A stretch of DNA of 64,000 nt from a virus. Taxonomy: Duplodnaviria; Caudoviricetes. The notes under the pieces are model-generated. The model was given only the letters and a program-made list of their open reading frames with translations. It was not told the origin of the DNA and did not search any database. This document shows, one piece after another, positions 1,900-48,075 of the stretch; position 1 is the first letter of the stretch, and each line of letters opens with the position of its first letter. Position numbers and translations under genes: made by a program. The DNA lies in IMG/VR virus record IMGVR_UViG_3300037312_000330, positions 160,001-224,000 of that record; one strand, 5' to 3'.

Positions 1900-2145
1900 A
1901 TGCCCATCAAACATCGAGTGCAGGCTTTCGCGCCAAGTCCCGGATACGGTGGCGGTGGCGGAGAACCTTTCCACAAAGGACAGAAGGCTCGTGTACCTGA
2001 CATCGGAAAACTGAAGGGCGACACAGTAACAGTGGACTCCGAGTTGCAACCACCGGACAGACAGAACCCAGACGGTTGGTATTGGGTGAAGTTCAAGAAG
2101 GGTGGTCGTGTTAAGATGAAGGCGGGCGATCTGCGTCCGATCTAA
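1900..2145 (+). CDS. small SH3/KOW-like beta protein with N-terminal MPIKHRVQA signal
   Basis: FHKGQKARV...GDTVTV...WYWVKF pattern; shared N-terminal motif. Confidence 0.6.
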   Translation: MPIKHRVQAFAPSPGYGGGGGEPFHKGQKARVPDIGKLKGDTVTVDSELQPPDRQNPDGWYWVKFKKGGRVKMKAGDLRPI

Positions 2146-2146
2146 C

Positions 2147-2920
2147 ATGCCGATCCTACAACGAATACTGGCGGGCAAGTACACTTCAGACCGACTAACT
2201 CGCCAGGAAGCGAAAGACCTGATAGTCTCGCTACGCCCTTTGATACGCAAGCACTGTCAGCAGTTCGAGATCGCTGGCTCCTTCCGTCGTGGAAACACTG
2301 ACATTGGCGATCTTGACTTCGTTGTAGTCAACGCTGATACCGCTGGTCTGCTGCAAGCTCTAGTCCAATACAAGAACGCTGAGAAGGCACCCCGAGCTGG
2401 CAAGGACGTGATGACCGTCATCGTCCCATTTGGCAAGAAGAAGATTCAGGTAGAGTTTGTGAACGTGCTACCACGCGCAGTGGGCAGTGGTCTGTTGCAC
2501 AGTACCGGAAGCGGCGAGTTCAACGTTGGCCTGCGTTCGTTCGCCAAGTCTAAAGGAATGCTGCTCAATCAGCATGGTCTGTTCCGTGCAGACAATGAGC
2601 GCTTCCTTGCTGGTCGTACTGAAGAAGATGTGTTTGACAAACTGGGATTCGCGTTCATCCCGCCGAAGCAACGCAACCTCAGTTTTCTGACTCTCAAGGG
2701 CAAGTACCTTGTCGATCCGTACAAGAACAACTTCTTACTCAAGGAACCGAAAGGCGAAGGTAAGAAGTGGAAGGTCAAGTCGAAGTCTGATCCAACCAAG
2801 TTCTACTTTGTGACCTTGACTCCCAATGGTAAATGGAAGTGCACGTGTCCACAGTTCGTGTACCGCAAGCAAGAGTGTAAGCACATCCAATTCATTAAGG
2901 ACAAGAAGGGGTTGTCATGA
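2147..2920 (+). CDS. polX: minimal family X DNA polymerase fused to a C-terminal SWIM zinc finger
   Basis: IAGSFRRG..DIGDLD catalytic motif, HSTGSGEFN, AKSKGMLLNQHGLF; SWIM WKCTCPQFVYRKQECKH; no lyase or PHP domain. Confidence 0.9.
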   Translation: MPILQRILAGKYTSDRLTRQEAKDLIVSLRPLIRKHCQQFEIAGSFRRGNTDIGDLDFVVVNADTAGLLQALVQYKNAEKAPRAGKDVMTVIVPFGKKKIQVEFVNVLPRAVGSGLLHSTGSGEFNVGLRSFAKSKGMLLNQHGLFRADNERFLAGRTEEDVFDKLGFAFIPPKQRNLSFLTLKGKYLVDPYKNNFLLKEPKGEGKKWKVKSKSDPTKFYFVTLTPNGKWKCTCPQFVYRKQECKHIQFIKDKKGLS

Positions 2921-3123
2921 CCATCAGAGCAATAGCCCGACTGAAAGAGCTGGCTGCCGAGATTAAGCCCGAGAACAGAGGCAAATTGCACCGCCGGTTG
3001 GGGATCCCGGAAGATCAAGAGATACCAATGTCTCGCTTGCGTTCGGAACTCAAGAAGGCTAAGGACAGCGGTGACACAGAACTCGAGAAGATGGTGAACT
3101 TCGCTATCAATTTCAAGCACTAA
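2917..3123 (+). CDS. small basic phage protein (GxLHxxLGxP type)
   Basis: 68 aa; GKLHRRLGIPEDQEIP; ATGA overlap with polX. Confidence 0.65.
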   Translation: MTIRAIARLKELAAEIKPENRGKLHRRLGIPEDQEIPMSRLRSELKKAKDSGDTELEKMVNFAINFKH

Positions 3124-3125
3124 AC

Positions 3126-3710
3126 ATGCCGCATCCATATCTATACAAGCTGGCCCACAAGCATGGCATCTCAGTGGATGAAGCTGAGAAGCGGTGGAAT
3201 AAGGCGAAGTCCAGAGCCAAAGACGAAGGTAAGGACAAGGACTGGGTTTACATTACTGGAATCTTCAAGCGCAGTATGGGCGAGGGTGCCTCGTTCGTTG
3301 GTGATGAAGAGGCCGACACATACGATCCAGTGCTTCCTCCTGGAATGCAGCCTAACGCTTCCGTAGCCAGATTGCGTGAAGTCGCCGCGATGGCCAATCA
3401 GGCGCAGGCTAAACGATTCCTGCAGGGGATTGGGCTCCAACCTACTTCTGTAGGAATGGTTGAAGAGAACTACATCAGCTACAAGATCAAGGATCCTGGT
3501 GAGAGCAAGACGGTCAACATCATCACGCAGGCGCTCGGCGTGGCGGGTGTAAAGCAAGCGAAAGATTACGGTCCTGTAGTCAATCGCGTTACCAAGACGA
3601 TCCAATGGATCTGGCGTGTGCCGAGCCGTGGGGTCATCAAGTACTTCCCTTCTACACACAAAGTCGCGTTCATGAATCAGGAACTTGACGACAAAGGAGA
3701 GACCGTATGA
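3126..3710 (+). CDS. two-domain hypothetical protein, probable head cargo
   Basis: N-domain EAEKRWNKAK...WVYITGIFKR (ChaB-like helical), then ASFVGDEEADT linker and VARLREVAA motif. Confidence 0.65.
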   Translation: MPHPYLYKLAHKHGISVDEAEKRWNKAKSRAKDEGKDKDWVYITGIFKRSMGEGASFVGDEEADTYDPVLPPGMQPNASVARLREVAAMANQAQAKRFLQGIGLQPTSVGMVEENYISYKIKDPGESKTVNIITQALGVAGVKQAKDYGPVVNRVTKTIQWIWRVPSRGVIKYFPSTHKVAFMNQELDDKGETV

Positions 3711-4669
3711 AGACGAAAGCTGCGAAGCGTCTGCTGACAGCCGGTCGCTACGTTGGCACCCAGGAGTGGTTCCTTGGTATGCCAGAAGAGAAACAACGCG
3801 ATTATCTAGCGAAGAAACCTTGCTCCACGTTCAAGCCTGTCCACAAGGAAGTCCGTGAAACGAATGCGGACAGCAGCAAGAAGCAACAGACCAAGCTCCG
3901 CAAGCGTGCCGAGAAGCACCTGGACAACAAGACCGGACTGAGCACAGCAGCCGCGCCTAAGCTGGCCAAACCAGTGAAACTTGGCAAGACTGTAGACGGC
4001 AAGAACTACGTCTGGCGCGAAGAATGCATAATCAACCGACAAAAGGCAGAAGTCTACGTAGTCCGGAATAAGGCGGGTAAGGAGTTAGTTGCACTCAAGA
4101 ACTCTCGCGCAGCCTTCGAGTATCGACCTCTGGAGTCCAGCACCAGCACAGCGACAGCCCGTCTGCGTGAGATCGCCACGGGTCGTGGACCGGCGATTGG
4201 TGATCTCTGCAAGTTGAAGAAGCCGATTGGCGGATATTCGTACTTCCATTGCACTGGATTCGCCATCAATAAGAACAAGCAAGGTCTTGGTCCCATGGGT
4301 CTTGGAGACGGTCGCTTTCCGTTTGCTGGTGCCCAGATAGATGGGATCATTGGTAATCTGAAACCAACCCCATTGGCGACCAACGACTATGGACCCAAGA
4401 AGACTATCAAGCTAGAAGACATCGATACAGTGTTGGACGCACGCTCACGGCAACTCGAGATACAAGAATACCGTGACAAGCAACCGCTCGCCGTTGGATC
4501 AGTAGTCCGATTCAACGGACAGCTCTATACAGTGAAGAGCGGACCGCATTACGACACACCGAGACAGCGCAAGACAGACACGGCGTCCTGGTATGTGTGC
4601 GTAGACAAGAGTGGTGTCGAACACCAGATCAGCCGTGCTGCACTCGAATTCATGTACGGACCACGCTAA
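3707..4669 (+). CDS. multi-domain basic hypothetical protein, probable head cargo
   Basis: 320 aa; WFLGMPEEKQRDYLAKKP motif, internal TARLREIA, C-terminal SH3-like GSVVRFNG. Confidence 0.65.
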   Translation: MKTKAAKRLLTAGRYVGTQEWFLGMPEEKQRDYLAKKPCSTFKPVHKEVRETNADSSKKQQTKLRKRAEKHLDNKTGLSTAAAPKLAKPVKLGKTVDGKNYVWREECIINRQKAEVYVVRNKAGKELVALKNSRAAFEYRPLESSTSTATARLREIATGRGPAIGDLCKLKKPIGGYSYFHCTGFAINKNKQGLGPMGLGDGRFPFAGAQIDGIIGNLKPTPLATNDYGPKKTIKLEDIDTVLDARSRQLEIQEYRDKQPLAVGSVVRFNGQLYTVKSGPHYDTPRQRKTDTASWYVCVDKSGVEHQISRAALEFMYGPR

Positions 4670-4672
4670 GAT

Positions 4673-6157
4673 ATGGACAACTCCACAACTTTGTGCGTAA
4701 AGTTCCCCGCTGACAGTAGCAACGTCACAGTCAGCTTTGCCGACGTACTTGTGGGTGGGGAGCAGATCGTAAGCGGAGTGCTTGGCACCAGCACTCCAAC
4801 CGGGTTGACAGTCAGCAGTCTGAGTTTCACGGGCACGACCATCAGCCTGAATGTCGCTGCTGGAACAGACAAGCAAAGTTACGGGGTCCAAGTCACTGCG
4901 AATACGGACGCCGGTCACGTCTACACGAAGGTGCTTGCAGTCGTGATCAACAGTGATCTGGCTGCCGACTATCAGAACACGAACGTAGACGCGTTCCAAG
5001 CTCTGGTCGGAAAACTGGAAGCCGGAACTGCTGCCCTAGGTAAAGCCGCGTTCATGTTCCCTGGAACAGTGGATACCACATCCGGTATCGTAACGTGGGA
5101 TCTGCTGGATCAGAATGGAGTAGTGCTTGCCAACGGACAGGCGTTCGACTATCAGACGATCGCAGTAGCAAGTGGCAAGCGTGCCGAGGCACAAGCTGTT
5201 ATCACGGCTCCGTCGAACACAACGCCTACACTGGACGGACAGTCGTATCAGCTCCGTTGGACACTGACTCTCAACGGACAGCAATACTTCTCGTTCGAGA
5301 GTCTGCAAATCACCGGTCCGGCCACTGTGCCGGAAGGTGTCGAAGATGTCATCGAGATGGATGACGTTACGGCGTTCACCATCTACATGGTATCTGATCA
5401 GCCGTGGGACACCGTGACCGTCGATGTTTACGATGAGAACACCAAGATCGTTGTGGATGCACCGACTGCAGCTCCAACACAAACTGCTGACGGATGGCAG
5501 TATATGTGTCAGTTCCAGCCGGATCCAAACAACCTTATGCTGGCGCGTTTGGAAAGCTACACTGTCGTTTGGAAGACTAGCAATGTCGCGCGTCCTGGCT
5601 ATGTGGAACGACAGACAGGACGTTTGTTTGTAGTCAATGCTTCTATCATGGCTGCTGTCACAGACATGCGGACCGTGATCGCCAAGGCAGAGACAACGAT
5701 TCTGGGCACCAAAGACATCCTGTTCACGGATACGCTGCTACTTGCGTATCTGCGTCGTGGTAAAGACGCCTTCAACATCGCTTACGGTATGTTCACGGCG
5801 TTCGACATGACTAACGCACAAGGGCCGGTACGCGAATACTGGATGCGCTATTCTGAGATAACTGCACTCCGGGCTCAATTCTTGGCCGAAGGCGAGAAAG
5901 TGTTCAACTTCTCAGGACAGGCTATCCAGTTGGATTCGGATCGCACCACCTACTATCAGCAGCTCGCTGACAACATCGAGCAGCGGATCTCAGAGGAATG
6001 CAAGATGATCAAGCAAAACCTGATCAAGAAGGGTATCCTGGGTGGTGACGGAAACCTGAAGGATCTGACGGCGATGCGACATGGTTCCAACGGTGCTGTT
6101 GCCATCACGATCACGCCGGCGTCTACTCTGGGATATCGCTTTGCGCGGAGATTCTAA
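4673..6157 (+). CDS. virion structural protein, possible head-tail adaptor/neck
   Basis: Thr/Val-rich beta (Ig-like) N-part; helical C-part (LLAYLRRGKDAFN...FNFSGQAIQLDSDRTTYYQQ) resembling adaptor proteins; inference. Confidence 0.5.
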   Translation: MDNSTTLCVKFPADSSNVTVSFADVLVGGEQIVSGVLGTSTPTGLTVSSLSFTGTTISLNVAAGTDKQSYGVQVTANTDAGHVYTKVLAVVINSDLAADYQNTNVDAFQALVGKLEAGTAALGKAAFMFPGTVDTTSGIVTWDLLDQNGVVLANGQAFDYQTIAVASGKRAEAQAVITAPSNTTPTLDGQSYQLRWTLTLNGQQYFSFESLQITGPATVPEGVEDVIEMDDVTAFTIYMVSDQPWDTVTVDVYDENTKIVVDAPTAAPTQTADGWQYMCQFQPDPNNLMLARLESYTVVWKTSNVARPGYVERQTGRLFVVNASIMAAVTDMRTVIAKAETTILGTKDILFTDTLLLAYLRRGKDAFNIAYGMFTAFDMTNAQGPVREYWMRYSEITALRAQFLAEGEKVFNFSGQAIQLDSDRTTYYQQLADNIEQRISEECKMIKQNLIKKGILGGDGNLKDLTAMRHGSNGAVAITITPASTLGYRFARRF

Positions 6158-6462
6158 TGCCAATCACACATCGCATTCAAGCTGCTGCCAAGGGTGACTT
6201 CGAGAAGAAGATCCTGGAATTTCTAGAGAACAACTTCGAAGCAATGGCTGATTCTACAGGAAAACGTGGCTTCGGCAAGTACAATAAGCGAACTCAGTTG
6301 GACTACTTGATGTCGTACGTCCAGAACGACCGCGAGTACTGGAAAGAGTTCAGTGACGAAGACCCTGAGTTTGACGCTAAGCTCACGAAATGGCTCAAGC
6401 TGGCCCCACACGCGCAGTTGGAACAGCTTCTGCCGTTCTTCAACAAACTCGACTACGATTGA
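6157..6462 (+). CDS. hypothetical protein with MPITHRIQAA signal
   Basis: 101 aa; TAATG overlap with the upstream gene. Confidence 0.7.
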   Translation: MPITHRIQAAAKGDFEKKILEFLENNFEAMADSTGKRGFGKYNKRTQLDYLMSYVQNDREYWKEFSDEDPEFDAKLTKWLKLAPHAQLEQLLPFFNKLDYD

Positions 6463-6791
6463 TGTTCTTCAAACGTAACAAGTCTGGAGTCACGAAGATC
6501 GTCCGTGATAACTATCACAAAGATAAGACACGTGTTGATCTGAAGAAAGTTGGTCTGACTATCAAGGACGATTGGTACACGCTGAAGGCCCGTGTCCTAA
6601 AACGTGATAACTACCGATGTAAACAGTGCGGAACAAAACACGGTTCTGACGATCCGAAACGTCTAGGCAAGAAGATCTGGCTAGACGCACACCACATACG
6701 AGAGTTGAGTAAGGGTGGCACGACAACTATGGCAAACCTCATCAGCCTATGTCGCTATTGTCATCTAACTCGACATTCACATCATTTCTAA
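6462..6791 (+). CDS. HNH endonuclease
   Basis: RVLKRDNYRCKQC...LDAHHI..LSKGG....NLISLCRYCH; start placed at ATG 6462 (TGATG overlap). Confidence 0.9.
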   Translation: MFFKRNKSGVTKIVRDNYHKDKTRVDLKKVGLTIKDDWYTLKARVLKRDNYRCKQCGTKHGSDDPKRLGKKIWLDAHHIRELSKGGTTTMANLISLCRYCHLTRHSHHF

Positions 6792-6806
6792 GGATAAACA
6801 CACATC

Positions 6807-7253: not shown

Positions 7254-7256
7254 TAT

Positions 7257-7332: not shown

Positions 7333-7788
7333 ATGTCCGACCCCACGGGGATTCTCAGCGTTTCCGTTGAGGGATCCCCGTCCAATGAGGACCCTGCTGA
7401 TGATGGTGCTTCACTAGAGGCAATTATCCAGGCGTACCTCGACGTAAATCCCACCCCAAGTGACGAACAGATTCACCATCTCGCAGCAATGCTCGGAATG
7501 ACACCCGAGTCGTTCGAGGAGGTAATCTACAAGATGTTCGGTCAATACGTGTCTGACGACATGCCAGCTATCAATGATGCGCTGACAGGTCTGAGTATGC
7601 GTGACGCACCGGAGGATCCGATTGAGGAACTGCTAGTCAAGTTCTTCGTCGCGCATCCGGAACCGTCTGACGAACAGATCCACCACCTAGCTGCGCTTAT
7701 CGGGTTTACGCCCGAGACGCTTGAGGAGCGTTTGTATTCCATGCTGTCTGATCTGGAATCAATCGATCCTACCAACCCATCCATCTGA
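7333..7788 (+). CDS. acidic protein with two tandem helical (homeodomain/HTH-like) repeats
   Basis: PSDEQIHHLAA.(L/I)G.TPE..EE..Y.M occurs twice. Confidence 0.7.
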   Translation: MSDPTGILSVSVEGSPSNEDPADDGASLEAIIQAYLDVNPTPSDEQIHHLAAMLGMTPESFEEVIYKMFGQYVSDDMPAINDALTGLSMRDAPEDPIEELLVKFFVAHPEPSDEQIHHLAALIGFTPETLEERLYSMLSDLESIDPTNPSI

Positions 7789-7796
7789 GGCCCATC

Positions 7797-8668: not shown

Positions 8669-9064
8669 ATGGCAATTACTCATCGCATCGTGGCGGCACC
8701 TTCCAAGAAGGCGTACATGTCTTGGGCAGAAATGCAGAAGACCATGTCTAACGTGATGATGGAGCTGAGGGCAAACGGATTGAAGTTTGCTCCTGAGTAT
8801 GATTTCCTCAAAGCTCCTTCGTACGTTAGAAGAGGCTACTACAGCACAAAAGTCACTGCAAAGGAAGTCCAAGAAGTGTTGCGCAGGCGTGGCTTTCGGA
8901 TGGACAATCGCTTCGCTGTTCTCTACAAAAAGATTGGCTCCAAGTCTGTCGAGATCTCATTTGAAGAACGTGGACCAACTCTTCACATGGAACTCACCGT
9001 TTCTGACAACAATGGTCCTGAAGATCAAGATGTAGTAGGTCCAGGTCACAGCCACTATGACTAA
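8669..9064 (+). CDS. hypothetical protein with MAITHRIVAA signal
   Basis: 131 aa with RBS AAGGA. Confidence 0.7.
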   Translation: MAITHRIVAAPSKKAYMSWAEMQKTMSNVMMELRANGLKFAPEYDFLKAPSYVRRGYYSTKVTAKEVQEVLRRRGFRMDNRFAVLYKKIGSKSVEISFEERGPTLHMELTVSDNNGPEDQDVVGPGHSHYD

Positions 9065-9066
9065 GA

Positions 9067-9200
9067 ATGATCGCCAATCGCATCACGGCTGCACGAGGCA
9101 ATTGGAATCCAGACGTCATCAAGCCGGTGAAAAGACTCCAGATAACGATACCCACGCCGGGCAAATCGATTTTGATGCTGCGTGGAAGATGCAAATGTGA
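9067..9200 (+). pseudogene. micro-gene with MIANRITAA signal interrupted by a -1 frame break
   Basis: MIANRITAARGNWNPDVIKP, then the -1 frame GEKTPDNDTHAGQIDFDAAWKMQM*; its TGA overlaps the RBS of the next gene. Confidence 0.55.
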
Positions 9201-9206
9201 GGACGT

Positions 9207-9647
9207 ATGTCGATCAACAAGAAAGTAGAAGCAGCGGCGATAAGCGGAGCAGGAATTCTGTTCGTCCACGACGGGAAGATACTCCTGATCTACCGTAGTG
9301 CCGATGTAGTCGACCCCAATCTGTGGTGTGGTGCGGGTGGCAAGATCGAGCCCGGTGAAACACCGGAAGAGGCGGCGGTACGTGAAGCCAGCGAAGAGAT
9401 TGGCTATACAGAAGACGACACGCTGGAACTGATCCCGCTGTACGTCTACAACAGTGACAAGCTGGTGTTCCACAACTTTGTGGGTCTGTTGCCTCGCGAA
9501 CGCTTTCGCCCGACACTAAATTGGGAATCGGAGGGTTACGGCTGGTTCACTCTGGACAAGCTGCCGAACAACCTCCACTATGGATTCCAGGAGATCCTGG
9601 ACGATAAGGAAGCAAGCACCGTCCTCAAGGACGCGATGGAGAAGTAG
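9207..9647 (+). CDS. Nudix hydrolase with MSINKKVEAA signal-like N-terminus
   Basis: Nudix box GGKIEPGETPEEAAVREASEEIG. Confidence 0.93.
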   Translation: MSINKKVEAAAISGAGILFVHDGKILLIYRSADVVDPNLWCGAGGKIEPGETPEEAAVREASEEIGYTEDDTLELIPLYVYNSDKLVFHNFVGLLPRERFRPTLNWESEGYGWFTLDKLPNNLHYGFQEILDDKEASTVLKDAMEK

Positions 9648-9875
9648 ATGCCGGTCAAAAATCGCGTAGAAGCGGTGGGCGAGTCTGACGACGAATTGAA
9701 GGAATGGGAAGCAATCGCCAAGTTCGTGAAACGGGGCAAAGGCTCGGCCGTCAAGGACAAGGGTAAGAAGGTGCTTTCTACATACGATAAGCTTCCCAAG
9801 AGCAATCCAACAGTTCATGAGATAGAAGTAAACGGGACACGTTATGCGATCGTAAGGATCGTGAGTCTGCGATAA
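9648..9875 (+). CDS. small protein with MPVKNRVEA signal
   Basis: 75 aa, abuts the Nudix stop codon. Confidence 0.65.
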   Translation: MPVKNRVEAVGESDDELKEWEAIAKFVKRGKGSAVKDKGKKVLSTYDKLPKSNPTVHEIEVNGTRYAIVRIVSLR

Positions 9876-11085: not shown

Positions 11086-11268
11086 ATGGCTATTAGAAAC
11101 AGGATAACTGCTAGTGCGAAGACTTTCTATCAGGCCAACTACTCTCCGGAATGTGTACTCTTAAGCAGATCCAGGATTTCGCCACAGCTTGGAACAAATG
11201 GCGTGATGACTTCCGTAATGGAAAGAATCCGCCAGCCTTTAAATATCCATAATAGAAAACGACAATGA
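11086..11268 (+). CDS. micro-protein with MAIRNRITAS signal; probable -1 frame break
   Basis: Zero frame gives 60 aa. The -1 frame after SP reads GMCTLKQIQDFATAWNKWRDDFRNGKNPPAFKYP* (ends 11252) with better codon usage. Confidence 0.55.
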   Translation: MAIRNRITASAKTFYQANYSPECVLLSRSRISPQLGTNGVMTSVMERIRQPLNIHNRKRQ

Positions 11269-11922: not shown

Positions 11923-12696
11923 ATGCCTGTCTTGCCAACGGCTCCGCCAGAAAAACCAGATCAAGACGAGAGTCTTACCGATCTCTCGGTGATTGGAGTA
12001 CCGGCGGAGTACCGAGATCAGTTTCCCCAAGTGGTCGCCTATCCATCGAAATTCAGTGACGCTGGATTCGATGTATGGAAGGCAATGCTGAAAGACCAGC
12101 GATTCACAAATCGCATGGTCAGCATGGGTACTAAGGACATGGCTTGGCATACAGCAATCCAGGAGTTCCTGCGACTGTGTGACGAGTCGAATATTGATCC
12201 GATCATCGGTGGTGCGCCAACTGCGCCAACTGCCTACTTCCACAATCAGGTGCGCAGAGGCCGCATCTTCTTGGTGGACTACGCGAACGAGATCGGCCTG
12301 TTCAAGAGGATAAAGATCCAGTTTGCTACGCGAGACATGCGAGAGTATATCCGCACAGACAACGGGTTCACTATCTACTCGTATGCTCGCATGTTTCCCG
12401 TACTGGATCCAACGCTTCCAAATTGGCTGACGAGCTTGCCGATGCCTCGCTTCATCAAACATCAGCGTACTCGCATGGTTGCTACTGTGAGACCGGGTGT
12501 CCGGTTCTGGGTCAATTGCGAGAACCTGCATCGTGTGTATGTAGGCCAAGAAATTGACGTCCCGAACAGTACGATCGACATCCCGGGCAATCACACCCCT
12601 ACGAGAGCCGAAGTGGATGCGTATATCGACTACCAGATTTGGATGCCTCTCGTCCGTTCCATCAAGTACGACGACATACCCAATAGATTATTTTGA
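11923..12696 (+). CDS. hypothetical protein
   Basis: 257-aa ORF with RBS GAGGAG. Confidence 0.65.
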   Translation: MPVLPTAPPEKPDQDESLTDLSVIGVPAEYRDQFPQVVAYPSKFSDAGFDVWKAMLKDQRFTNRMVSMGTKDMAWHTAIQEFLRLCDESNIDPIIGGAPTAPTAYFHNQVRRGRIFLVDYANEIGLFKRIKIQFATRDMREYIRTDNGFTIYSYARMFPVLDPTLPNWLTSLPMPRFIKHQRTRMVATVRPGVRFWVNCENLHRVYVGQEIDVPNSTIDIPGNHTPTRAEVDAYIDYQIWMPLVRSIKYDDIPNRLF

Positions 12697-12730
12697 TGGA
12701 AAATCATATCCTGTAAATAGGCATTATAAC
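12689..12730 (+). promoter_or_regulatory. adjacent TATTTTGATGG and TGTAAAT..TATAAC promoter-like motifs
   Basis: TATTTTGATGG 12689-12699; TGTAAAT 12712-12718; TATAAC 12725-12730; both motifs recur in other intergenic gaps. Confidence 0.5.
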
Positions 12731-42778: not shown

Positions 42779-42789
42779 GTCTGGACTGC

Positions 42790-43620
42790 CTAGAGGTTCT
42801 GGTTTAGTTCATCTGCTTTTGCTTGCGCCGCACGATAGAGTGGGGTGCGGATCTTTAGTGGTCCTGGTATAACTAGATACCGTGTCTGGAATGTGCAACG
42901 CACATCTAGGTTGACTTTGCCGTCCTTCTTCACTTCCCACCCACTTGCATACATTCCTGGAATTCCCGGTTCAACGATAACCGGCATATCCTTCGCTTTA
43001 TCTGGATTCAGATATCGGAATACCGTGTACTTTTCTATCTTGAGTGTAGTCGGTGATTCTACTTGCTTGTCAACCAAACGTTGATTGTTTTGCAGACGCT
43101 GTCTGACTTCTTCTTCACGCTCTATCTGCTTCTTGGTCTTGAGACGTGGTCCTGTGTATTTGGCATCTGTAGTCATTCCCACGGACTGCATCACGTGCTG
43201 CCACACTGGACCATGTGCGTCCTTTTCAGGACTATGCAGTATCTCGCTCACGTATTGGTGCGCCATCTCGTGGACTAGGGTGCCCAGCAGGTCTTTCTCG
43301 CCAGTCATGCCACCGAGATCGAACATCTGTTTGCCAAACTCCATCAGGTGACTGTATGGGCGCCACAATCCTAAGATCCGCTTCTTCCTGTTGATCTTGA
43401 ATGGCGGACATTTCATTACTCCGCCATACAGATGCTTATTGAAGAATTCCCAGCGTTCCTTCAGATACTCGGTAACGTAGAAGTCATCGTTGCTTATCCC
43501 ACCAATACTGCATACAGAGTAGCTGTACTTGAACGCTGGATTGCGGATTTTTACCGCACCATGCGGCAGAACTTCAACCAACTCTGAAGTAGAGAGGTTC
43601 GCAATGTTTAGAATGGGCAT
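42790..43620 (-). CDS. SprT-like zinc metalloprotease
   Basis: FFNKHLYGG; TLVHEMAHQ (HExxH); AHGPVWQ. Confidence 0.85.
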   Translation of the reverse strand: MPILNIANLSTSELVEVLPHGAVKIRNPAFKYSYSVCSIGGISNDDFYVTEYLKERWEFFNKHLYGGVMKCPPFKINRKKRILGLWRPYSHLMEFGKQMFDLGGMTGEKDLLGTLVHEMAHQYVSEILHSPEKDAHGPVWQHVMQSVGMTTDAKYTGPRLKTKKQIEREEEVRQRLQNNQRLVDKQVESPTTLKIEKYTVFRYLNPDKAKDMPVIVEPGIPGMYASGWEVKKDGKVNLDVRCTFQTRYLVIPGPLKIRTPLYRAAQAKADELNQNL

Positions 43621-43629
43621 CTGTTGTCC

Positions 43630-44331
43630 TTAAGACGGGATCACTGATGTTCCACCCGAAATAAGATCCCAAGAGCTAGTCGGAGTAGTTCCCGAAGCAC
43701 GCAGCAGGCGTTTGTTCGTCAGATCCCATACCTTCTTGCCCTTGAACTTATTGACTGTGTTGAGCACAGACGCTGCACTTGCGATGTTTGCAGCGGTGTC
43801 TTCTACCTCTGTAACCAGCACTGCAGTCGCAGCCGCATAGCTTGCGATCAATGTAGATACAGTGTTCGTGTCTACGAATCGATATTCATAAGCGGCGACA
43901 GTAGATCCGTCGCCTTGCACCATGAATGTCGTTCCGGAAGCGGCTCCAGCAGAGACCAAAGCTGCACGCCCCAGGCTCTCGGTCAAATACATCGGAGCCA
44001 GCAAATACATCGCCGTCTGGATAGCAGCGGTTGCTGCCGCTATCTCATGATCGTAAGCGTTGGATTCGCTTATTGCTGCATTTTCCTCGCTTGTTGCGGC
44101 ATTCTGTTCAGACTGTGCAGCATTCTTCTCACTCAATGATGCAGCTTGTTGAGAGGCAGCCGCATCAGAAGCATTCTTCAGGGAGGCAGCCGCCGAATCC
44201 GTCCCTGTCTTCAACAGATCAGCAACCTCTTCTTGCGGCAAATCCTGTCCGTTGAACGGAAGTGTCGGTGTGCGGGGTCGTTGATATTGTTGCAGTAGGA
44301 CCATCCCTACTGGAATCGGAGGATTCGACAT
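43630..44331 (-). CDS. tail-fibre-associated protein
   Basis: Ala/Ser-rich AAxSExNA repeats; C-terminal NTVNKFKGKKVWDLTNKRLLRASG; start placed at MSNPP. Confidence 0.55.
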   Translation of the reverse strand: MSNPPIPVGMVLLQQYQRPRTPTLPFNGQDLPQEEVADLLKTGTDSAAASLKNASDAAASQQAASLSEKNAAQSEQNAATSEENAAISESNAYDHEIAAATAAIQTAMYLLAPMYLTESLGRAALVSAGAASGTTFMVQGDGSTVAAYEYRFVDTNTVSTLIASYAAATAVLVTEVEDTAANIASAASVLNTVNKFKGKKVWDLTNKRLLRASGTTPTSSWDLISGGTSVIPS

Positions 44332-44339
44332 TTCTACAC

Positions 44340-46214
44340 CTAGAGTTTGTACTTGCGGGAAAACTGCTCCCACGTCATAGTCGGAATTCCTTGTTGTTTA
44401 GCGATGTCGATTTTGCCACTGGATTTTCCACCCGGTCTAAACAGGAGAACAGTAGTGCGTTTCGGACTCCAGGACACAACAGAACCGCCGTTCTTGATAA
44501 CTGCCTGTTCTTGGTCCTTATCTCGATATCCAGTCCAACTGACGTTTATGCCCATCATCTTCTTGCTTGAAAGCTTGACCGACTTGGGCTTCACCACCTT
44601 GAGACCTGTGATGCGCAGCCATTTGACGAATTTTGGCAACCCTTGCGCAATCTTCTCAGCATTCGTGCGTTGGAATCCTGGAAGACCCATTACCTCGCGA
44701 ACGATTACCTTGGGAGATTGCTTCGCCAACTGCATCAAATTAAGCTGCTCGCTCAACGCAGTCAATTGCGTCTCCCCTACTCCACGTGGGAACATAGAGC
44801 TCGCGTTCATCAATTGAGGTAACGTAAATCCTGCGTCTGTCTTCTCATGGATAGCCCGGTATAGCTTGTCCGCGCTGGTTTTCTTGAATCCAGGCACAGA
44901 CTCGAAATCCTTGGCCGAAGCGCGCAAGATTTTCGTTACGCTGTCCAGTCCAATGTCCATCAGACGTTGGATAGTTTTCCCACGTAGGAAATCTACATCG
45001 AGTTTGAGGAACGTGCGAGCGATTCGCTGAACACGGAACTCGGCACTGGCCTTGGGATCATCCAGAACAATGTTCACACCGTTCTTGTCCCAATGGTAAT
45101 TGCCAATGACATCCGGATCTGGCAACTTGGCCTTCACCTTCTTGTCGACACCGATGATGTCTGGAATAATGTCGCCACTGCGCACCAGACGGACCACTGC
45201 ACCTGGACCGATGCCCATCGACATCATCAGCTTGGCATTCTTTGCGGCCGCAAATCTGATTGTAGCTCCTGACAACTTGGTAGGCTCGATTTCCACACGC
45301 GGGATTAGATATCCATGTGGACTAACCTTCCAATGCATCTTTACTACGCGAGCAGTCGGGGCATCTTCGATTTCTACAGTCTCTTTAAACGCTACTCCCC
45401 AGTCTGGATTGCCAGACTTCGGCAACACAAGCTTCTTGTTCTGCACCAGCACCAGACCGTCACACTCGAACTGGCTGTTAGTCTTTCGTTTCTGTAGCAA
45501 CTGAGCTAGACGGTTGAACGTCAGTTCCGCGCTCTTTACCACTCGATATGAAACTACGCGAAACCCTGATCGCTCCAGGAACTTGAGGCCTGCCGAGAAC
45601 TTCGGTGGATTCGGGTCCAGTAGCTGAAGCGCCACCACCTGTAGATCTTTTAGGGAGTGGTGTACGTCTGTTCGATTCAGAATGCCCGACGCAGCATTAC
45701 GAGCAGCATCGAAGTCTTTGGTGTATTTCTGGAACGCAGCTTTCGTGAAGATGCCCTCACAACGAACGATCACGCGTTTCTTGGTGCTCAGCTTCTTCGG
45801 GATGCCACGCAGATGTGGAATCAGATAGCTAACATCCCCACCAATCTTCCCGTTGCCTCTTGTGTAGAGCTTTATCGGCACTCCTTCGTACACGAGTTCC
45901 AGAGCTGCCCCATCTAGCTTGTCCATGATGACCACTTCATCAGGACTATGCTCCAACCAATTCGCCACCTGTTCTGGCTTCTTGATTTTGTCTAGAGAGA
46001 AAATGGGAACCGGCAACTGCGCCTTGGTCTTCTTGTTCTTTACCGGAGCACCCGCTTTGAAGCCGCTCCAATTCGGAACCTGTTCTTTCAGATAGTCTTC
46101 AAGCCTATCGAAGTCCGCGTCCGACATGATTGGCTTGTCGTTGTAATACGCGTCCTTAGCACGCCGGTAAAGAATTTTTAGCTGTGCTACAGGGAGCTTG
46201 AGGTTAGGCTTCAT
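44340..46214 (-). CDS. ligA: NAD+-dependent DNA ligase with C-terminal BRCT
   Basis: YY..KPIMSDADFD, KLDG, RGNG, ARNAASG, DGLV, RSGDIIP; BRCT GGSVVSWS. Confidence 0.95.
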   Translation of the reverse strand: MKPNLKLPVAQLKILYRRAKDAYYNDKPIMSDADFDRLEDYLKEQVPNWSGFKAGAPVKNKKTKAQLPVPIFSLDKIKKPEQVANWLEHSPDEVVIMDKLDGAALELVYEGVPIKLYTRGNGKIGGDVSYLIPHLRGIPKKLSTKKRVIVRCEGIFTKAAFQKYTKDFDAARNAASGILNRTDVHHSLKDLQVVALQLLDPNPPKFSAGLKFLERSGFRVVSYRVVKSAELTFNRLAQLLQKRKTNSQFECDGLVLVQNKKLVLPKSGNPDWGVAFKETVEIEDAPTARVVKMHWKVSPHGYLIPRVEIEPTKLSGATIRFAAAKNAKLMMSMGIGPGAVVRLVRSGDIIPDIIGVDKKVKAKLPDPDVIGNYHWDKNGVNIVLDDPKASAEFRVQRIARTFLKLDVDFLRGKTIQRLMDIGLDSVTKILRASAKDFESVPGFKKTSADKLYRAIHEKTDAGFTLPQLMNASSMFPRGVGETQLTALSEQLNLMQLAKQSPKVIVREVMGLPGFQRTNAEKIAQGLPKFVKWLRITGLKVVKPKSVKLSSKKMMGINVSWTGYRDKDQEQAVIKNGGSVVSWSPKRTTVLLFRPGGKSSGKIDIAKQQGIPTMTWEQFSRKYKL

Positions 46215-46744
46215 GTCTGTGCTGCCAGTCTAGTCATATCCAACAGTCGGATGGTGTCTGGCACCTGTGGATCCCACTCAAATGGTTGTGCGTTCCCCAC
46301 GTGACGACCCTGATGGCTTTCGATCTTCTCACGAGGAACCTTAAGCGTATCGAACAAAACCTGCATCGTATGATAGTGCGATACGATCAACACGTTGCCA
46401 CTAGTCCAAGTGTGCAGAAGATTGTTCATTCCGTCACGTACACGCGCTTGCTCTAGCTCGCTCTCTGGATTAGCCAACTCATTGAAGGCAGGCAGGTTGA
46501 TCCAGTGCCTCTGCCAACCAACTTCATACAGGAGGCAAGCCATCGTGTGACGCGCTCTCGTGAGATTGGAAGAATAGAGATGTTCGAACTCAATTCCAGC
46601 GCGCATGAAGTAATGGCCGCACACGGCGGCCTGTCTTACTCCATACGGTGAAAGGAAGTTGCACTCGTCAGAACGATAGGCAGGTTTCCACACATTGCCC
46701 ATGGACTCGCCATGACGCACCATATAGAGCTTGCCTCTGGTCAT
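46211..46744 (-). CDS. histidine phosphatase (phosphoglycerate mutase-like)
   Basis: VRHGES, SSNLTRARHT, VSH. Confidence 0.88.
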   Translation of the reverse strand: MTRGKLYMVRHGESMGNVWKPAYRSDECNFLSPYGVRQAAVCGHYFMRAGIEFEHLYSSNLTRARHTMACLLYEVGWQRHWINLPAFNELANPESELEQARVRDGMNNLLHTWTSGNVLIVSHYHTMQVLFDTLKVPREKIESHQGRHVGNAQPFEWDPQVPDTIRLLDMTRLAAQT

Positions 46745-46986
46745 CGGAAGTTGTCCACGAAGTTGCGTGTCTCGGACAGAATGTCCTTCGATTTCTCGAT
46801 TGTGATGGTGATGTGGATGAACGGCACCGGAATCGGGAGAGTCACGTACAGCACACCCTTTTCTATATCAGAGTTCACCTTCATAGAACTGTAGTCAGGC
46901 CTGAACGTGTGGATCTGACTTACTGGTGCCTTCAGTGGTTCCACAGGACAGTCTTCGAATGGAATGACGTCAGGTGATGGTATCAT
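46741..46986 (-). CDS. hypothetical protein
   Basis: 81 aa; ATGA overlaps on both sides. Confidence 0.5.
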   Translation of the reverse strand: MIPSPDVIPFEDCPVEPLKAPVSQIHTFRPDYSSMKVNSDIEKGVLYVTLPIPVPFIHITITIEKSKDILSETRNFVDNFR

Positions 46987-47252
46987 CCTGGATACCCTCC
47001 GTGAGCGGGGCGATACGTAATGGCGGTCTGACGTTTGCGCATTTCTTCAGCTTGATACGCAGCCATCTCCTTTGCTATAAGCTGGAAAGTCTTTTTCCAG
47101 CCTCCTATGCAGCACGGCATAACATGCATCATGCGCGGCATGCCGCATCTAAACGATCGGTGACAAGCACAATGGCACGGTTCCCAATCTCCAGGTTCGC
47201 CGTTTGGACGCCAGCGAAAAGATTCGAACTCTTCGTCGTAATGTTCCAACAT
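46983..47252 (-). CDS. hypothetical Cys-containing protein
   Basis: RBS AAGGAG; PCHCACH. Confidence 0.55.
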   Translation of the reverse strand: MLEHYDEEFESFRWRPNGEPGDWEPCHCACHRSFRCGMPRMMHVMPCCIGGWKKTFQLIAKEMAAYQAEEMRKRQTAITYRPAHGGYPG

Positions 47253-47271
47253 TTCAGGTTCTCCTTTGTGG

Positions 47272-48075
47272 TTATTCGTCCGGTGATTCGTCTTCGTGCA
47301 CTATCTTCAACGCGGCAGGTGGAATGTGTGTGTATGTCCACACGGCGTTTTCTTCTGCAGAGTCCTGGAAGAACTTTGTCCCCGGTCTACAGGAAGCTAC
47401 GTTGATCTCAAAGATCACAAGCGGCATGTTCATGTCGGCACCACCATAATAGAGCTTCTCTATACCAATGTCCTGGTTGAAGATATGGTACGCTAGTTCG
47501 CGTATCATTGGCATATCCATTTCTTTCAACAGGAACACACGAGGTGGGTACTTGAAGTCACTGTGTCGGCCGTCGTTTGTGCCTTTAGGAATAAGTCCCT
47601 TTCGGACTATCCTATCCTTGTTGTAGAACGGACTAAAGTGATAGAGTTTGGGTGGAGGTGTGACTTGTTCTTGATACTTGAGCGCTTCAAGAACGTATTT
47701 GCTACTTCTAGAGGCGACGAACCATCCGTGCTGATTGAACATCTTGTTCAACCATCGTTCTAGAACTTCTGCGCGAGTGTTTGCGTCCTGCCATTCCCAT
47801 ATCTCAAGCCCGAACAATTTGCGCGTCACGCCAGCCATCAGTTGTTCGAACGGAGCGCGTTGAAATGCGACGTGATCACTGAACTCGGCTAATTTCAGTC
47901 GATCTAGAAGGAAGTCTTGCCATTCCTCAAGCGACATGAAGTGATGGTCGACGTCTTCCTTCTTGCGCTTCTCTGTGAGAATGTTCTTCTTGATCCACCC
48001 TGTTAGCAGTTCAGCCACTTGCTGTGCCTTAATGCTCTTGCGCGTGGCACTTGTTACTCTGTTCTCTATTGACAT
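47272..48075 (-). CDS. Tpt1/KptA-like ADP-ribosyltransferase-fold protein with MSIENRVTSA signal
   Basis: C-domain LYHFS....IVRKGLIP..RVFL..VIFEI..AVWTYTHIPPAAL. Confidence 0.65.
   Translation of the reverse strand: MSIENRVTSATRKSIKAQQVAELLTGWIKKNILTEKRKKEDVDHHFMSLEEWQDFLLDRLKLAEFSDHVAFQRAPFEQLMAGVTRKLFGLEIWEWQDANTRAEVLERWLNKMFNQHGWFVASRSSKYVLEALKYQEQVTPPPKLYHFSPFYNKDRIVRKGLIPKGTNDGRHSDFKYPPRVFLLKEMDMPMIRELAYHIFNQDIGIEKLYYGGADMNMPLVIFEINVASCRPGTKFFQDSAEENAVWTYTHIPPAALKIVHEDESPDE

What the first reader, a model, noticed from the sequence alone, without database searches (positions are those of the whole stretch)
1900..48075. Shared N-terminal peptide on at least 9 unrelated proteins: candidate capsid-targeting/injection signal system
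Seen: MPIKHRVQA (1900), MPILQRILA (PolX 2147), MPITHRIQA (6157), MAITHRIVA (8669), MIANRITA (9067), MSINKKVEA (Nudix 9207), MPVKNRVEA (9648), MAIRNRITA (11086) and MSIENRVTS (ART-like, starts 48075 on -). Consensus is M-[PAS]-[IV]-x-[HNQK]-[RK]-[IV]-x-[AS]. The proteins share nothing after this peptide. Codons vary synonymously (Arg as CGA, CGC, AGG, AGA), so the constraint acts on the peptide, not on DNA or RNA. None of the core replication proteins in the window carries it. Known: T4 internal proteins share a 10-aa N-terminal capsid-targeting sequence that prohead protease gp21 removes. Inference: this is a portable address tag that loads enzymes (PolX, Nudix, ART) and micro-proteins into the head for co-injection with DNA, probably cleaved near the Ala.
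Basis: partly seen in the sequence, partly recalled or inferred. Interest (0 to 1): 0.88.

Follow-up and report, generated by a model that had tools for sequence, protein, structure and literature searches.

The report
Shared N-terminal address tag, jumbo phage
About a dozen unrelated genes of this 249-kb phage begin with the same nine-residue peptide, a local dialect of an address tag found across phiRSL1-like jumbo phages; it probably marks enzymes for loading into the phage head, but that role is untested.

Summary
All nine listed ORFs begin with M-[PAS]-[IV]-x-[HNQK]-[RK]-[IV]-x-[AS]. The genome has 10 such ORFs against 0.03 in shuffled genomes. The proteins share nothing after the peptide. 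Arg, Ile and Ala codons vary freely, so selection acts on the peptide.

The window lies in a 248,884-bp phiRSL1/BcepSauron/Motura-like jumbo phage. The peptide is a shortened dialect of a tag found across that clade, consensus M-K-[IL]-[ENQ]-A-A-x-R-L-x-A-[TSA]. In 35 related loci this core sits in residues 1-20 of 17% of ORFs and in 1-2% of any later 20-residue window. Each genome has its own dialect. The short form occurs only here and in the closest relative.

Tagged genes lie in tight operons with the head-tail connector, portal, protease/scaffold and tail genes. A promoter-like motif seen before the sheath, baseplate and portal operons also precedes the tagged cluster. Tagged proteins are basic. 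Their domains (GNAT, Nudix, PolX, Tpt1-like ART fold, metalloproteases, Zeta kinase, topoisomerase IB) match those of proteins that phages inject.

Head loading is the best reading (about 0.4) but indirect. No conserved cleavage site follows the tag, and no receptor was identified.

This scan found the same tag family earlier in another genome (e1-5344466). I found no published description.

The parts
1..595 (+). 3' part of a 241-aa weakly GNAT-like gene. It starts 130 nt before the window (genome 159870) with the near-tag MTINKRAQT. A tag-like peptide ANIRRMGRVLSF lies near its C-terminus (window 539-574).
   Evidence: The L001 orthologue is split into two genes, and the second begins with the tag-like peptide.
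597..605 (+). TAGTTTGAT, a one-mismatch copy of the promoter-like motif TAATTTGAT, 52 nt upstream of the 415-aa gene.
649..1896 (+). 415-aa conserved neighbour (BcepSauron gp094-like) with a weak tag-like start MAIKRLFGV. It is the first gene of the tight operon.
1900..2145 (+). Tagged 81-aa protein (MPIKHRVQA).
2147..2920 (+). Tagged minimal PolX-like protein with a SWIM finger (MPILQRILA). The Pfam domains start at residue 18.
   Evidence: The L001 orthologue carries the long dialect MKLQALARLLSLAG.
2917..3123 (+). 68-aa protein with the long-dialect tag MTIRAIARLKELAAE.
3126..3710 (+). 194-aa two-module protein. An internal tag-like peptide ASVARLREVAAMA lies at nt 3357-3395, at the start of its second module. 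The shared peptide ASFVGDEEADT lies at nt 3288-3320.
3707..4669 (+). 320-aa protein with the long-dialect tag MKTKAAKRLLTAG. A second tag-like peptide ATARLREIATG lies at nt 4151-4183.
4673..6157 (+). Head-tail connector protein, untagged. It anchors the tagged cluster to virion genes.
   Evidence: phrog_17327 at E 2e-56 and Pfam Gp77; 37-39% identical to the phiRSL1 and BcepSauron connectors.
6157..6462 (+). Tagged 101-aa protein (MPITHRIQA). Its ATG overlaps the connector's stop codon (TAATG).
8669..9064 (+). Tagged 131-aa protein (MAITHRIVA).
9067..9228 (+). Short tagged ORF (MIANRITA, 53 aa). Its coding status is uncertain.
9207..9647 (+). Tagged Nudix hydrolase (MSINKKVEA). The Pfam domain starts at residue 14.
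   Evidence: Orthologues in phiRSL1 (ORF109) and BcepSauron (gp099) carry the long dialect.
9648..9875 (+). Tagged 75-aa protein (MPVKNRVEA).
11086..11268 (+). Short tagged ORF (MAIRNRITA, 60 aa). Its coding status is uncertain.
12712..12719 (+). TGTAAATA, the first copy of the motif found upstream of replication genes. It marks the downstream end of the tagged cluster, just before the helicase block.
47272..48075 (-). Tagged 267-aa protein (MSIENRVTS) with a C-terminal Tpt1/KptA-like ADP-ribosyltransferase fold. It is the third gene downstream of the portal.
48574..51057 (-). 827-aa protein directly downstream of the portal, with a degenerate tag-like start (MEYKTNVRDRLVAV).
51067..52968 (-). 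Portal protein (context).
   Evidence: phrog_16240 at E 1e-144
53436..53444 (-). Exact TAATTTGAT promoter-like motif, 29 nt upstream of the 119-aa gene that heads the portal operon.
53442..55685 (-). Large terminase (context). A one-mismatch motif TATTTTGAT lies at 55720-55712, 35 nt upstream.

Best explanation
The peptide is a portable N-terminal address tag read as protein by one phage-encoded partner. It is this phage's short dialect (mature form x-I-x-[N/H]-R-[I/V]-x-A) of a 12-residue tag used throughout the phiRSL1-like jumbo phages (M-K-[IL]-[ENQ]-A-A-x-R-L-x-A-[TSA]). The most likely role is to dock late-made accessory proteins onto the assembling prohead (scaffold core, inner capsid wall or portal), so that they are enclosed with the DNA and delivered into the next host. 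These proteins include a minimal PolX, Nudix, a Tpt1-like ART-fold enzyme, GNATs and many small basic proteins. SHOWN: the tag exists; it is N-terminal; it lies outside the folded domains; it is under peptide-level selection; it is clade-wide with genome-specific dialects; its genes are interleaved with virion genes. INFERRED: late expression, a single receptor, encapsidation and injection. UNSUPPORTED: proteolytic removal of the tag.
For: (1) Not chance and not a DNA or RNA element: 10 hits against 0.03 in shuffles. In three relatives the invariant Arg uses codons from both families (CGN and AGR), Leu uses CTN and TTR, and Ala uses all four codons. (2) Clade-wide and position-specific: the core A-x-x-R-[LIM]...[ASTG] occurs in residues 1-20 of 154/893 ORFs in 35 related loci, against 1-1.8% in each later 20-residue window. 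Arg is at residue 8 in 70 of 131 cases. (3) Each genome has its own dialect at the non-core positions while synonymous sites are scrambled, which fits co-evolution with a genome-specific reader. (4) Dialects are interchangeable on orthologues. PolX starts MPILQRILA here and MKLQALARLL in L001. Nudix is tagged here and in phiRSL1 and BcepSauron. (5) The tag is an appendage: Pfam domains start at residues 14 (Nudix) and 18 (PolX), and residues 1-12 of the ART-like model have pLDDT 29. (6) Virion context: the tagged genes form a stop/start-coupled operon with the head-tail connector. The ART-like gene lies in the portal operon. In relatives, tagged genes sit between protease and scaffold, after the portal (BcepSauron gp253) and after the tail tube. 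In Motura, 10 of 12 strict tags lie within 11 kb around the connector. (7) Shared promoter-like motif: TAATTTGAT lies 29-83 nt upstream of the sheath, a 591-aa tail-module gene (probably baseplate; not family-tested) and the portal operon. One-mismatch copies precede TerL and a tail fibre. An exact copy lies 53 nt upstream of the first tagged gene (genome 157694). The replication genes carry a different motif, TGTAAAT. The close relative has TAATTTGAT before its sheath gene and before a tagged gene. (8) Cargo-like properties: among 131 tagged proteins the recognisable domains are GNAT (7), Nudix (4), PolX (2), SprT-like and lethal-factor-like metalloproteases (2 each), Zeta kinase, topoisomerase IB and nucleases. 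These are the classes listed for injected polyvalent proteins (PMC5512222). The Nudix also matches a PHROG of portal proteins that carry a fused Nudix. Tagged proteins of 100 aa or more are basic: median pI 8.0-8.7 against 5.3-6.1 for length-matched neighbours, p down to 1e-6. Few have membrane-like segments (5/208). [quoted passage not shown]
Against: There is no direct evidence that any tagged protein is in a virion. The phiRSL1 virion proteome paper is not held in the library, and the Matilda study did not analyse virions. No receptor was identified; the one complex prediction gave no verdict. No conserved protease site follows the tag, unlike T4. Some tagged enzymes (homospermidine synthase, topoisomerase IB, a globin with a tag-like start) would be expected to act in the cytoplasm during infection. 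The cluster is flanked by replication genes as well as by the connector. The 'late' label for TAATTTGAT rests only on its association with structural genes, and one-mismatch copies also precede ribonucleotide reductase genes. Tag-like peptides also occur internally, at module junctions of fused proteins. In similar shared-tag cases in this scan, later checks priced the bold reading at 5-18% in most and 45% in one.
Confidence: 0.42

Rival explanations
1. The tag docks proteins onto a different phage hub without enclosing them in the virion. One candidate is the portal/terminase packaging motor or a DNA-maturation complex, which would recruit repair and processing enzymes (PolX, topoisomerase IB, HNH, nucleases, Nudix) to DNA just before or during packaging.
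For: Several tagged enzymes act on DNA. Tagged proteins are basic, as nucleic-acid binders are. The cluster lies between the connector and the helicase/polymerase block. The TerL N-terminus contains a tag-like NIEDRVHS.
Against: Most tagged proteins are small and of unknown function. Others are protein-modifying effectors (GNAT, metalloproteases, Zeta kinase, ART fold) with no obvious role at a packaging motor. Twelve portal subunits offer few sites for 15-20 client types.
Confidence: 0.18
2. The tag is an N-terminal degron or unfoldase-recognition signal, read by host ClpXP/Lon or a phage AAA+ enzyme, that limits the lifetime of a set of accessory proteins.
For: The strict N-terminal position and the hydrophobic-basic-hydrophobic core resemble ClpX N-terminal recognition motifs (recalled from the literature, not tested here). 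The genome encodes two AAA+ family proteins.
Against: The genome has no ClpP. One AAA+ hit lies in the replication block (possibly a clamp loader; not family-tested), and the other has no assigned role. Genome-specific dialects argue for a phage-encoded, co-evolving reader rather than a conserved host protease. It is hard to see why 13 of 30 genes around a connector gene would need one degron.
Confidence: 0.1
3. The tag is a recognition leader for a modifying enzyme, for example a phage GNAT that acetylates the N-terminus or a RiPP-like maturase, and not a sorting signal.
For: Position 2 of the short dialect is always P/A/S/T, so Met would be removed, or else Met directly precedes Ile. Exactly one residue therefore precedes the Ile. 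That suggests a reader that needs the free N-terminus. The genome encodes several GNATs and a large biosynthetic-like operon (an unchecked note).
Against: No modifying enzyme co-occurs consistently with the tagged clusters in the 35 loci inspected. Tagged proteins are full-size folded enzymes, not short precursors.
Confidence: 0.07
4. The tag plugs accessory proteins onto the outside of the virion, as a decoration or tail-accessory docking peptide.
For: Tagged genes also lie after tail sheath and tube genes in relatives. An N-terminal docking peptide of this kind was proposed for another giant phage in this scan (item 8; unchecked here).
Against: The recognisable tagged domains act on intracellular substrates: DNA, nucleotides, NAD and proteins. 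None resembles an adhesin, depolymerase or Ig-like decoration.
Confidence: 0.06
5. The conservation acts on nucleic acid: a translation-initiation element, or a 5' recombination cassette that shuffles gene bodies.
For: Gene fusions and fissions occur at tag positions between this phage and L001. Lys as second codon, as in the long dialect, is common in well-expressed genes (general knowledge).
Against: Synonymous sites are scrambled at every conserved residue, including switches between Arg and Leu codon families. Upstream DNA is unrelated.
Confidence: 0.03

Closest known systems
Capsid-targeting sequence (CTS) of phage T4 internal proteins IPI-III and Alt
   Same: A roughly 10-residue peptide at the extreme N-terminus of otherwise unrelated proteins, including an ART-fold enzyme. 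In T4 it directs them into the scaffolding core of the prohead (PMC3012670). The cargo is diverse and conflict-related.
   Different: There is no sequence similarity. No conserved protease site ends the tag, whereas the T4 CTS is removed by gp21. Many more client genes carry it per genome (about 12-20), including sizeable enzymes. Dialects are genome-specific and two dialects coexist in this phage. Encapsidation is not shown here.
N-terminal packaging signal of phage P1 DarB
   Same: An N-terminal stretch of more than 9 and at most 30 residues is sufficient to send a reporter into the capsid (PMC9024508). The cargo is an anti-defence enzyme.
   Different: In P1 the signal was mapped on DarB alone, and assembly is stepwise through other Dar proteins. 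Here one short peptide is shared by many genes.
Encapsulin cargo-loading peptides
   Same: A short terminal peptide on diverse enzymes that, in encapsulins, binds the inner face of an HK97-fold shell (general knowledge). The logic of a portable tag with one shell-side receptor is the same.
   Different: Encapsulin tags are usually C-terminal with a different motif. Binding of the present tag to the capsid protein is untested, and the complex prediction gave no answer.
Polyvalent proteins of phages and conjugative elements (Iyer et al. 2017, PMC5512222)
   Same: The same classes of catalytic domains (GNAT, ART, zincin metallopeptidase, Pol-beta-type nucleotidyltransferase; also Nudix, which that paper mentions only once, linked to another domain) are predicted there to be packaged and injected.
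   Different: Polyvalent proteins string the domains into one giant polypeptide. Here each domain is a separate small gene with its own copy of the tag.
MKIEAxxRL tag reported by this scan in another phiRSL1-like genome (e1-5344466)
   Same: The same tag family and the same reading. My loci L013, L066 and L010 show that dialect.
   Different: The present window carries a shortened dialect, two residues shorter with Arg at residue 6, found only here and in its closest relative. It sits alongside a few long-dialect genes.

Membership tests
T4-type capsid-targeting sequence | Short peptide at the extreme N-terminus shared by otherwise unrelated proteins | tested here: met
T4-type capsid-targeting sequence | Tagged proteins are present inside mature heads and are injected | not testable with these tools
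   No virion proteome of this clade could be read.
T4-type capsid-targeting sequence | The tag ends in a prohead-protease site and is removed | tested here: not met
   Nothing is conserved beyond +4 from the Arg. [AGS]-x-E follows the tag in 24% of cases against 13-14% in controls. A head maturation protease does exist (genome 12582-13388; phrog_18299).
T4-type capsid-targeting sequence | The tag alone carries a foreign protein into the capsid | not testable with these tools
   Needs a reporter-fusion experiment.
T4-type capsid-targeting sequence | Client genes are expressed with the head genes | tested here: inconclusive
   Stop/start-coupled operon with the connector. Shared TAATTTGAT motif with the sheath, baseplate and portal operons. 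No expression data.
Encapsulin-like cargo-loading peptide | The peptide binds the inner surface of the HK97-fold shell protein | tested here: inconclusive
   Complex prediction of capsid protein, scaffold-position protein and a tagged protein gave no verdict.
Polyvalent proteins | Two to fifteen effector domains in one polypeptide | tested here: not met
   Tagged proteins have a median length of 138 aa and mostly one domain.
Polyvalent proteins | Repertoire of GNAT, ART, metallopeptidase, Pol-beta NTase, kinase and nuclease domains | tested here: met
DNA polymerase X (window 2147-2920) | Pol-beta palm and thumb domains | tested here: met
   Thumb 76.7 bits (cut-off 25); palm 24.3 bits, just under the cut-off of 25; no 8-kDa or fingers domain was detected. 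It is therefore a minimal PolX-like enzyme.
Nudix hydrolase (window 9207-9647) | Nudix domain above the Pfam cut-off | tested here: met
   71.6 bits against a cut-off of 21.1
Tpt1/KptA ADP-ribosyltransferase fold (window 47272-48075) | ART fold with the Tpt1 catalytic residues | tested here: inconclusive
   Foldseek E 1e-6 and probability 1.0 to Tpt1/KptA structures, but TM only 0.31/0.44. One homologue is named Tpt1/KptA by its source. Catalytic residues were not mapped.
ClpX N-terminal degron | Near-N-terminal hydrophobic-basic-hydrophobic motif that is recognised and degraded by ClpXP | not testable with these tools
   The resemblance is recalled from memory only. The phage has no ClpP.

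The most novel reading that the evidence does not exclude
A whole clade of jumbo phages runs a programmable cargo-loading system. A 9-12-residue N-terminal tag, in genome-specific dialects that co-evolve with a procapsid receptor, loads about 12-20 separate enzymes and small basic proteins per genome into the head for injection. This would be a 'disaggregated polyvalent protein' and a phage counterpart of encapsulin cargo tags. In this phage two dialects coexist (Arg at residue 6 and Arg at residue 8) and may address different sites or loading steps.
Probability: 0.3. Interest if true: 0.82.

Novelty: new variant of a known kind. Interest (0 to 1): 0.66.

Why it matters
If the tag is a head-loading signal, it would name the injected protein set of an entire jumbo-phage clade from sequence alone. 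That set would include a minimal PolX, Nudix, a Tpt1-like ART-fold enzyme, GNATs, metalloproteases, a Zeta-type kinase and topoisomerase IB. Each would become a testable candidate for first-minute counter-defence or DNA repair. It would also give a 9-12-residue handle for packaging chosen proteins into large capsids, as the T4 CTS has been used. The genome-specific dialects offer a natural experiment on how a sorting signal and its receptor co-evolve. Even if the destination is not the capsid, one peptide shared by about a sixth of the genes around the head genes of many phages points to an undescribed hub protein. The cultured relatives phiRSL1, BcepSauron, Motura and Matilda make the question directly testable.

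Tried and rejected
1. Complex prediction with the capsid protein (alignment A5), the C-terminal part of the scaffold-position protein (A6, residues 256-525) and the tagged 131-aa protein (A8) returned 'no answer' with score 0.00. This is not evidence either way.
2. A cleavage site after the tag was tested and not found. [AGS]-x-E is only weakly enriched, and no residue is conserved beyond +4.
3. The phiRSL1 virion proteome paper (Yamada 2010) is not held in the library. Searches for phiRSL1 or Motura virion proteomics found nothing usable. The Matilda preprint states that virion composition was not determined.
4. The more distant relative PaBG shows no such tags around its connector, so the tag is limited to the phiRSL1-like branch.
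5. The structure model of the conserved 420-aa neighbour (phiRSL1 ORF115-like) was poor (pLDDT 50). It gave only generic jelly-roll matches at Z 7.
6. The generic sigma-70 and terminator scan was not enriched over shuffles. The useful motifs came from k-mer enrichment instead.
7. PF00574 (ClpP) is absent from the genome. AAA+ hits are present but give no link to the tag.
8. The idea that the tag copies the capsid protein's N-terminus was dropped. phiRSL1 and BcepSauron capsid proteins start MVRQKVKIAA and MRTNKIQVTA, but this phage's capsid protein lacks that stretch.
9. The conserved segment G-N-R-I-V-A-T in the scaffold-position protein fits the tag core R-[IL]-x-A-[ST]. The motif is short enough to occur by chance, so I keep this only as a lead.

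Full report
**What the window is.** The 64-kb window is bases 160001-224000 of a single 248,884-bp virus record. Its DNA polymerase, portal and head-tail connector are 37-43% identical to those of Ralstonia phage phiRSL1, Burkholderia phages BcepSauron and BcepSaruman, and Achromobacter phage Motura. It is therefore an uncultivated phiRSL1-like jumbo myovirus. The window holds:
- a head-tail connector at 4673-6157 (phrog_17327, E 2e-56);
- a 1574-aa helicase, DNA polymerase I, SSB, UvsX, SbcC and NAD ligase;
- on the minus strand, the large terminase (53442-55685) and the portal (51067-52968).

The capsid protein, scaffold-position protein, sheath and head maturation protease lie elsewhere in the genome.

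**Checking the observation.** Across the genome, ten ATG-started ORFs of at least 50 codons fit the pattern, against a mean of 0.03 in 60 Markov-shuffled genomes. The tenth (MSIRNRIVA) lies 2.3 kb upstream of the window. Near-matches start a weakly GNAT-like gene that runs into the window (MTINKRAQT) and a bacterial-type globin 73 kb away (MAIRRILAG).

With the first 12 residues removed, the tagged proteins have no significant similarity to each other. Codons vary at every conserved residue and the upstream DNA is unrelated. The constraint therefore acts on the peptide.

In all strict matches the Ile is residue 3 and residue 2 is P, A, S or T. By the known rules of methionine aminopeptidase, the Met would be removed. 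In the two exceptions (MIANRITA here, MITNRIQA in the relative) Met itself precedes the Ile. The mature N-terminus would then always have exactly one residue before the Ile. This last point is an inference.

The ORFs at 9067 and 11086 are short and may not be genes.

**The wider picture.** The closest relative found is an IMG/VR contig (L001) with 68% identity at the connector. It has about a dozen genes with the same short tag. It also has six genes that start with a longer peptide such as MKLQALARLL or MRIQAVARLKEAA.

Two window genes also carry the long form: 2917 (MTIRAIARLKELA) and 3707 (MKTKAAKRLLTAG). The PolX orthologue in L001 carries the long form where the window gene carries the short one. 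The Nudix orthologues of phiRSL1 (ORF109) and BcepSauron (gp099) carry long forms too. The two forms are therefore interchangeable on the same protein. The short form looks like the long one minus two residues: compare MAIKSLSRLQT in L009 with MAIKNRIQAT in L001.

A profile search with the connector brought in 35 related loci. In these loci the core A-x-x-R-[LIM]...[ASTG] occurs in residues 1-20 of 154 of 893 ORFs (17%). It occurs in only 1-1.8% of ORFs in each later 20-residue window.

Aligned on the Arg, the consensus is M-K-[IL]-[ENQ]-A-A-x-R-L-x-A-[TSA]. Arg is residue 8 in 70 of 131 cases, and nothing is conserved after +4.

Each genome has its own dialect:
- MKIEAAxRL in L013 and L010;
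- MKVKLNAAxRL in L036;
- MxIQAxxRL in Motura, on 13 of 30 ORFs around the connector;
- MxFKIEAxxRIQA in L017.

Within each genome the invariant Arg uses codons from both families (CGN and AGR), Leu uses both families, and Ala uses all four codons. Uniform peptides over scrambled synonymous sites point to a genome-specific protein reader, not to recent gene conversion. The short dialect occurs only in this genome and in L001. In the complete Motura genome a strict DNA pattern for the tag hits 12 times, all on one strand, against 0 for the reversed control. Ten of the 12 lie within 11 kb around the connector.

**Anatomy.** The tag is an appendage. The Nudix domain starts at residue 14 and the PolX palm at residue 18. 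In the model of the 267-aa protein, residues 1-12 have pLDDT 29 while the body is confident. That body matches Tpt1/KptA structures at Foldseek E 1e-6, with ART toxins next, so 'ART-like' is fair. One homologue is named Tpt1/KptA by its source.

Tag-like peptides also sit inside two window proteins (nt 3357-3395 and 4151-4183) and near the C-terminus of the GNAT-like protein. Comparison with L001 shows these are module junctions that are separate genes in one phage and fused in the other.

**Context.** From 649 to at least 6791, and again from 8669 to 9875, the genes are joined by overlaps or gaps of one to three bases (TAATG, ATGA, TAGATG). The tagged genes and the connector are therefore almost certainly co-transcribed.

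The Tpt1-like gene is the third gene after the portal. In BcepSauron, a tagged gene (gp253) is the second gene after the portal. In relatives, tagged genes also sit between protease and scaffold-position protein (phiRSL1 ORF133, L066) and after the tail tube.

K-mer enrichment in upstream gaps gave two motifs.
- TGTAAAT lies 20-130 nt upstream of DNA polymerase, SSB, SbcC, ribonucleotide reductase, a 457-aa gene (genome 216942-218315; probably a replicative helicase/primase, not family-tested) and many small genes.
- TAATTTGAT lies 29-83 nt upstream of the sheath, a 591-aa tail-module gene (probably baseplate; not family-tested) and the portal operon. One-mismatch copies precede TerL and a tail fibre. 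An exact copy lies 53 nt upstream of the first tagged gene (genome 157694), and a one-mismatch copy precedes the gene at window 649.

No TGTAAAT occurs inside the tagged cluster; the first is at window 12712, just before the helicase block. In the close relative, TAATTTGAT again precedes the sheath gene and a tagged gene. I read TAATTTGAT as a late-type promoter element. That reading is an inference from the genes it accompanies, and one-mismatch copies also precede ribonucleotide reductase genes.

**What is tagged.** Among 131 tagged proteins of 110 aa or more from all loci, Pfam recognises the following:
- GNAT acetyltransferases (7);
- Nudix (4);
- homospermidine synthase (2);
- PolX (2);
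- SprT-like metalloproteases (2) and anthrax-lethal-factor-like metalloproteases (2);
- one each of Zeta toxin kinase, topoisomerase IB, HNH, RNase T and PD-(D/E)XK nuclease.

Peptidases, ARTs, kinases, GNATs and Pol-beta-type nucleotidyltransferases are the commonest catalytic domains of the 'polyvalent proteins' that phages are predicted to package and inject (PMC5512222). The window's Nudix also matches a PHROG of portal proteins that carry a fused Nudix domain.

Tagged proteins are basic. For those of 100 aa or more, median pI is 8.0-8.7, against 5.3-6.1 for length-matched untagged neighbours. Few have membrane-like segments. These comparisons use crude gene calls and non-independent orthologues.

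**Most likely mechanism.** Taken together, the tag behaves as an address label read by one phage protein. The clients look like late-made effectors and DNA-handling enzymes that would be most useful at the very start of the next infection.

The closest precedents are two. The T4 capsid-targeting sequence is the only feature shared by a diverse set of internal defence proteins (PMC3012670). The N-terminal 30 residues of P1 DarB suffice to send a reporter into the capsid (PMC9024508). phiRSL1 capsids are reported to have internal densities under the vertices (PMC5646251).

I therefore rate head loading as the best single reading, at about 0.4. The more general statement, a protein-level docking tag with a co-evolving phage reader, I rate at about 0.8.

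**What does not fit or is missing.**
- No virion proteome for this clade could be read.
- Some clients (homospermidine synthase, topoisomerase IB, a globin) would be expected to work in the cytoplasm.

Rivals therefore remain open: docking onto the packaging or replication machinery, a degron, a modification leader, or external attachment. A nucleic-acid-level explanation is essentially excluded by the codon data.

**Novelty.** I found no description of this tag in the jumbo-phage comparative paper that covers Motura and phiRSL1, or in the other papers searched. The same scan did report the MKIEAxxRL dialect in another genome on the same day (e1-5344466), and my independent analysis agrees with it.

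New here are:
- the short dialect and its coexistence with the long one;
- the exchange of dialects on orthologous PolX and Nudix;
- the promoter-motif link to structural operons;
- the effector-like domain census and the basic charge of the clients.

Noticed in passing
window 335-367 and 3288-3320: A second shared peptide, ASFVGDEEADT, is identical in two otherwise unrelated proteins: the GNAT-like protein and the 194-aa two-module protein. Six of its 11 codons differ synonymously, so it too is kept at the peptide level. In both proteins it lies just before a module junction. It was not found in the relatives. It could be a linker, a cleavage site or a second docking motif.
   Followed up: partly
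whole genome; window 597-605, 12689-12697, 12712-12719, 53436-53444, 55712-55720: Two promoter-like motifs partition the genome. TGTAAAT(A/G) lies upstream of replication and nucleotide-metabolism genes. TAATTTGAT(G) lies upstream of the sheath, baseplate, portal and terminase operons and of the tagged cluster. A divergent pair of TAATTTGATGCAG copies forms an inverted repeat at genome 157641-157680.
   Followed up: partly
genome 158033-159295 (L002:8033-9295), 0.7 kb upstream of the window: A conserved 420-aa neighbour of the connector (phiRSL1 ORF115-like). Its N-terminus, MP-x(3-5)-S-N-N-R-I-L-P-A-N-A-R-A-x-D-V-A, is the best-conserved part across 11 genomes, and it resembles the short tag (MPIxNRIxA). 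The protein has conserved Cys pairs and a jelly-roll domain at residues about 200-310. The model was poor (pLDDT 50).
   Followed up: partly
genome 87162-87611 (L004:3162-3611): A phage-encoded bacterial-like (truncated) globin (Pfam Bac_globin, 36.7 bits). The domain starts at residue 14, behind a tag-like extension MAIRRILAGNEDK. It lies far from the tagged cluster.
   Followed up: partly
genome 63649-65226 (L003:8649-10226, minus strand): The scaffold-position protein (phiRSL1 ORF134-like; PHROG label 'ATPase') has zinc-ribbon-like N-terminal repeats and a long acidic stretch. Its conserved block contains G-N-R-I-V-A-T, which fits the tag core R-[IL]-x-A-[ST]. Its C-terminus reads PELARLLG. 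This may be mimicry by the tags or may be chance.
   Followed up: partly
window 7333-7788: A 151-aa protein with an internal tandem duplication of a roughly 50-residue unit (NPxPSDEQIHHLAAxxGxTPExxEE). The unit is homologous to the N-terminus of phiRSL1 ORF125 and BcepSauron gp090. Pfam gives a weak homeodomain-like hit.
   Followed up: no
window 2917-4669 versus L001:7285-9526: Gene fusions and fissions occur at tag positions between the two closest relatives. The 68-aa gene at 2917 is fused to a further tagged module in L001. The GNAT-like gene is fused here and split in L001. The N-terminal segment (about residues 10-50) of the 3707 protein corresponds to the C-terminal part of L001:8894.
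   Followed up: partly
window 53442-55685 (TerL) and 48574-51057: The large terminase has NIEDRVHS at residues 15-22, close to the tag of the Tpt1-like protein (MSIENRVTS). The 827-aa protein after the portal starts MEYKTNVRDRLVAV. Either could be chance.
   Followed up: no
window 3126-3290 and relatives: A small conserved module, MPxxYIKKLxxxGKGSxxxLExxWxxAK, is present in all phiRSL1-like genomes inspected (phiRSL1 ORF112, BcepSauron gp098). Here it is fused in front of a tagged module. Its function is unknown.
   Followed up: no
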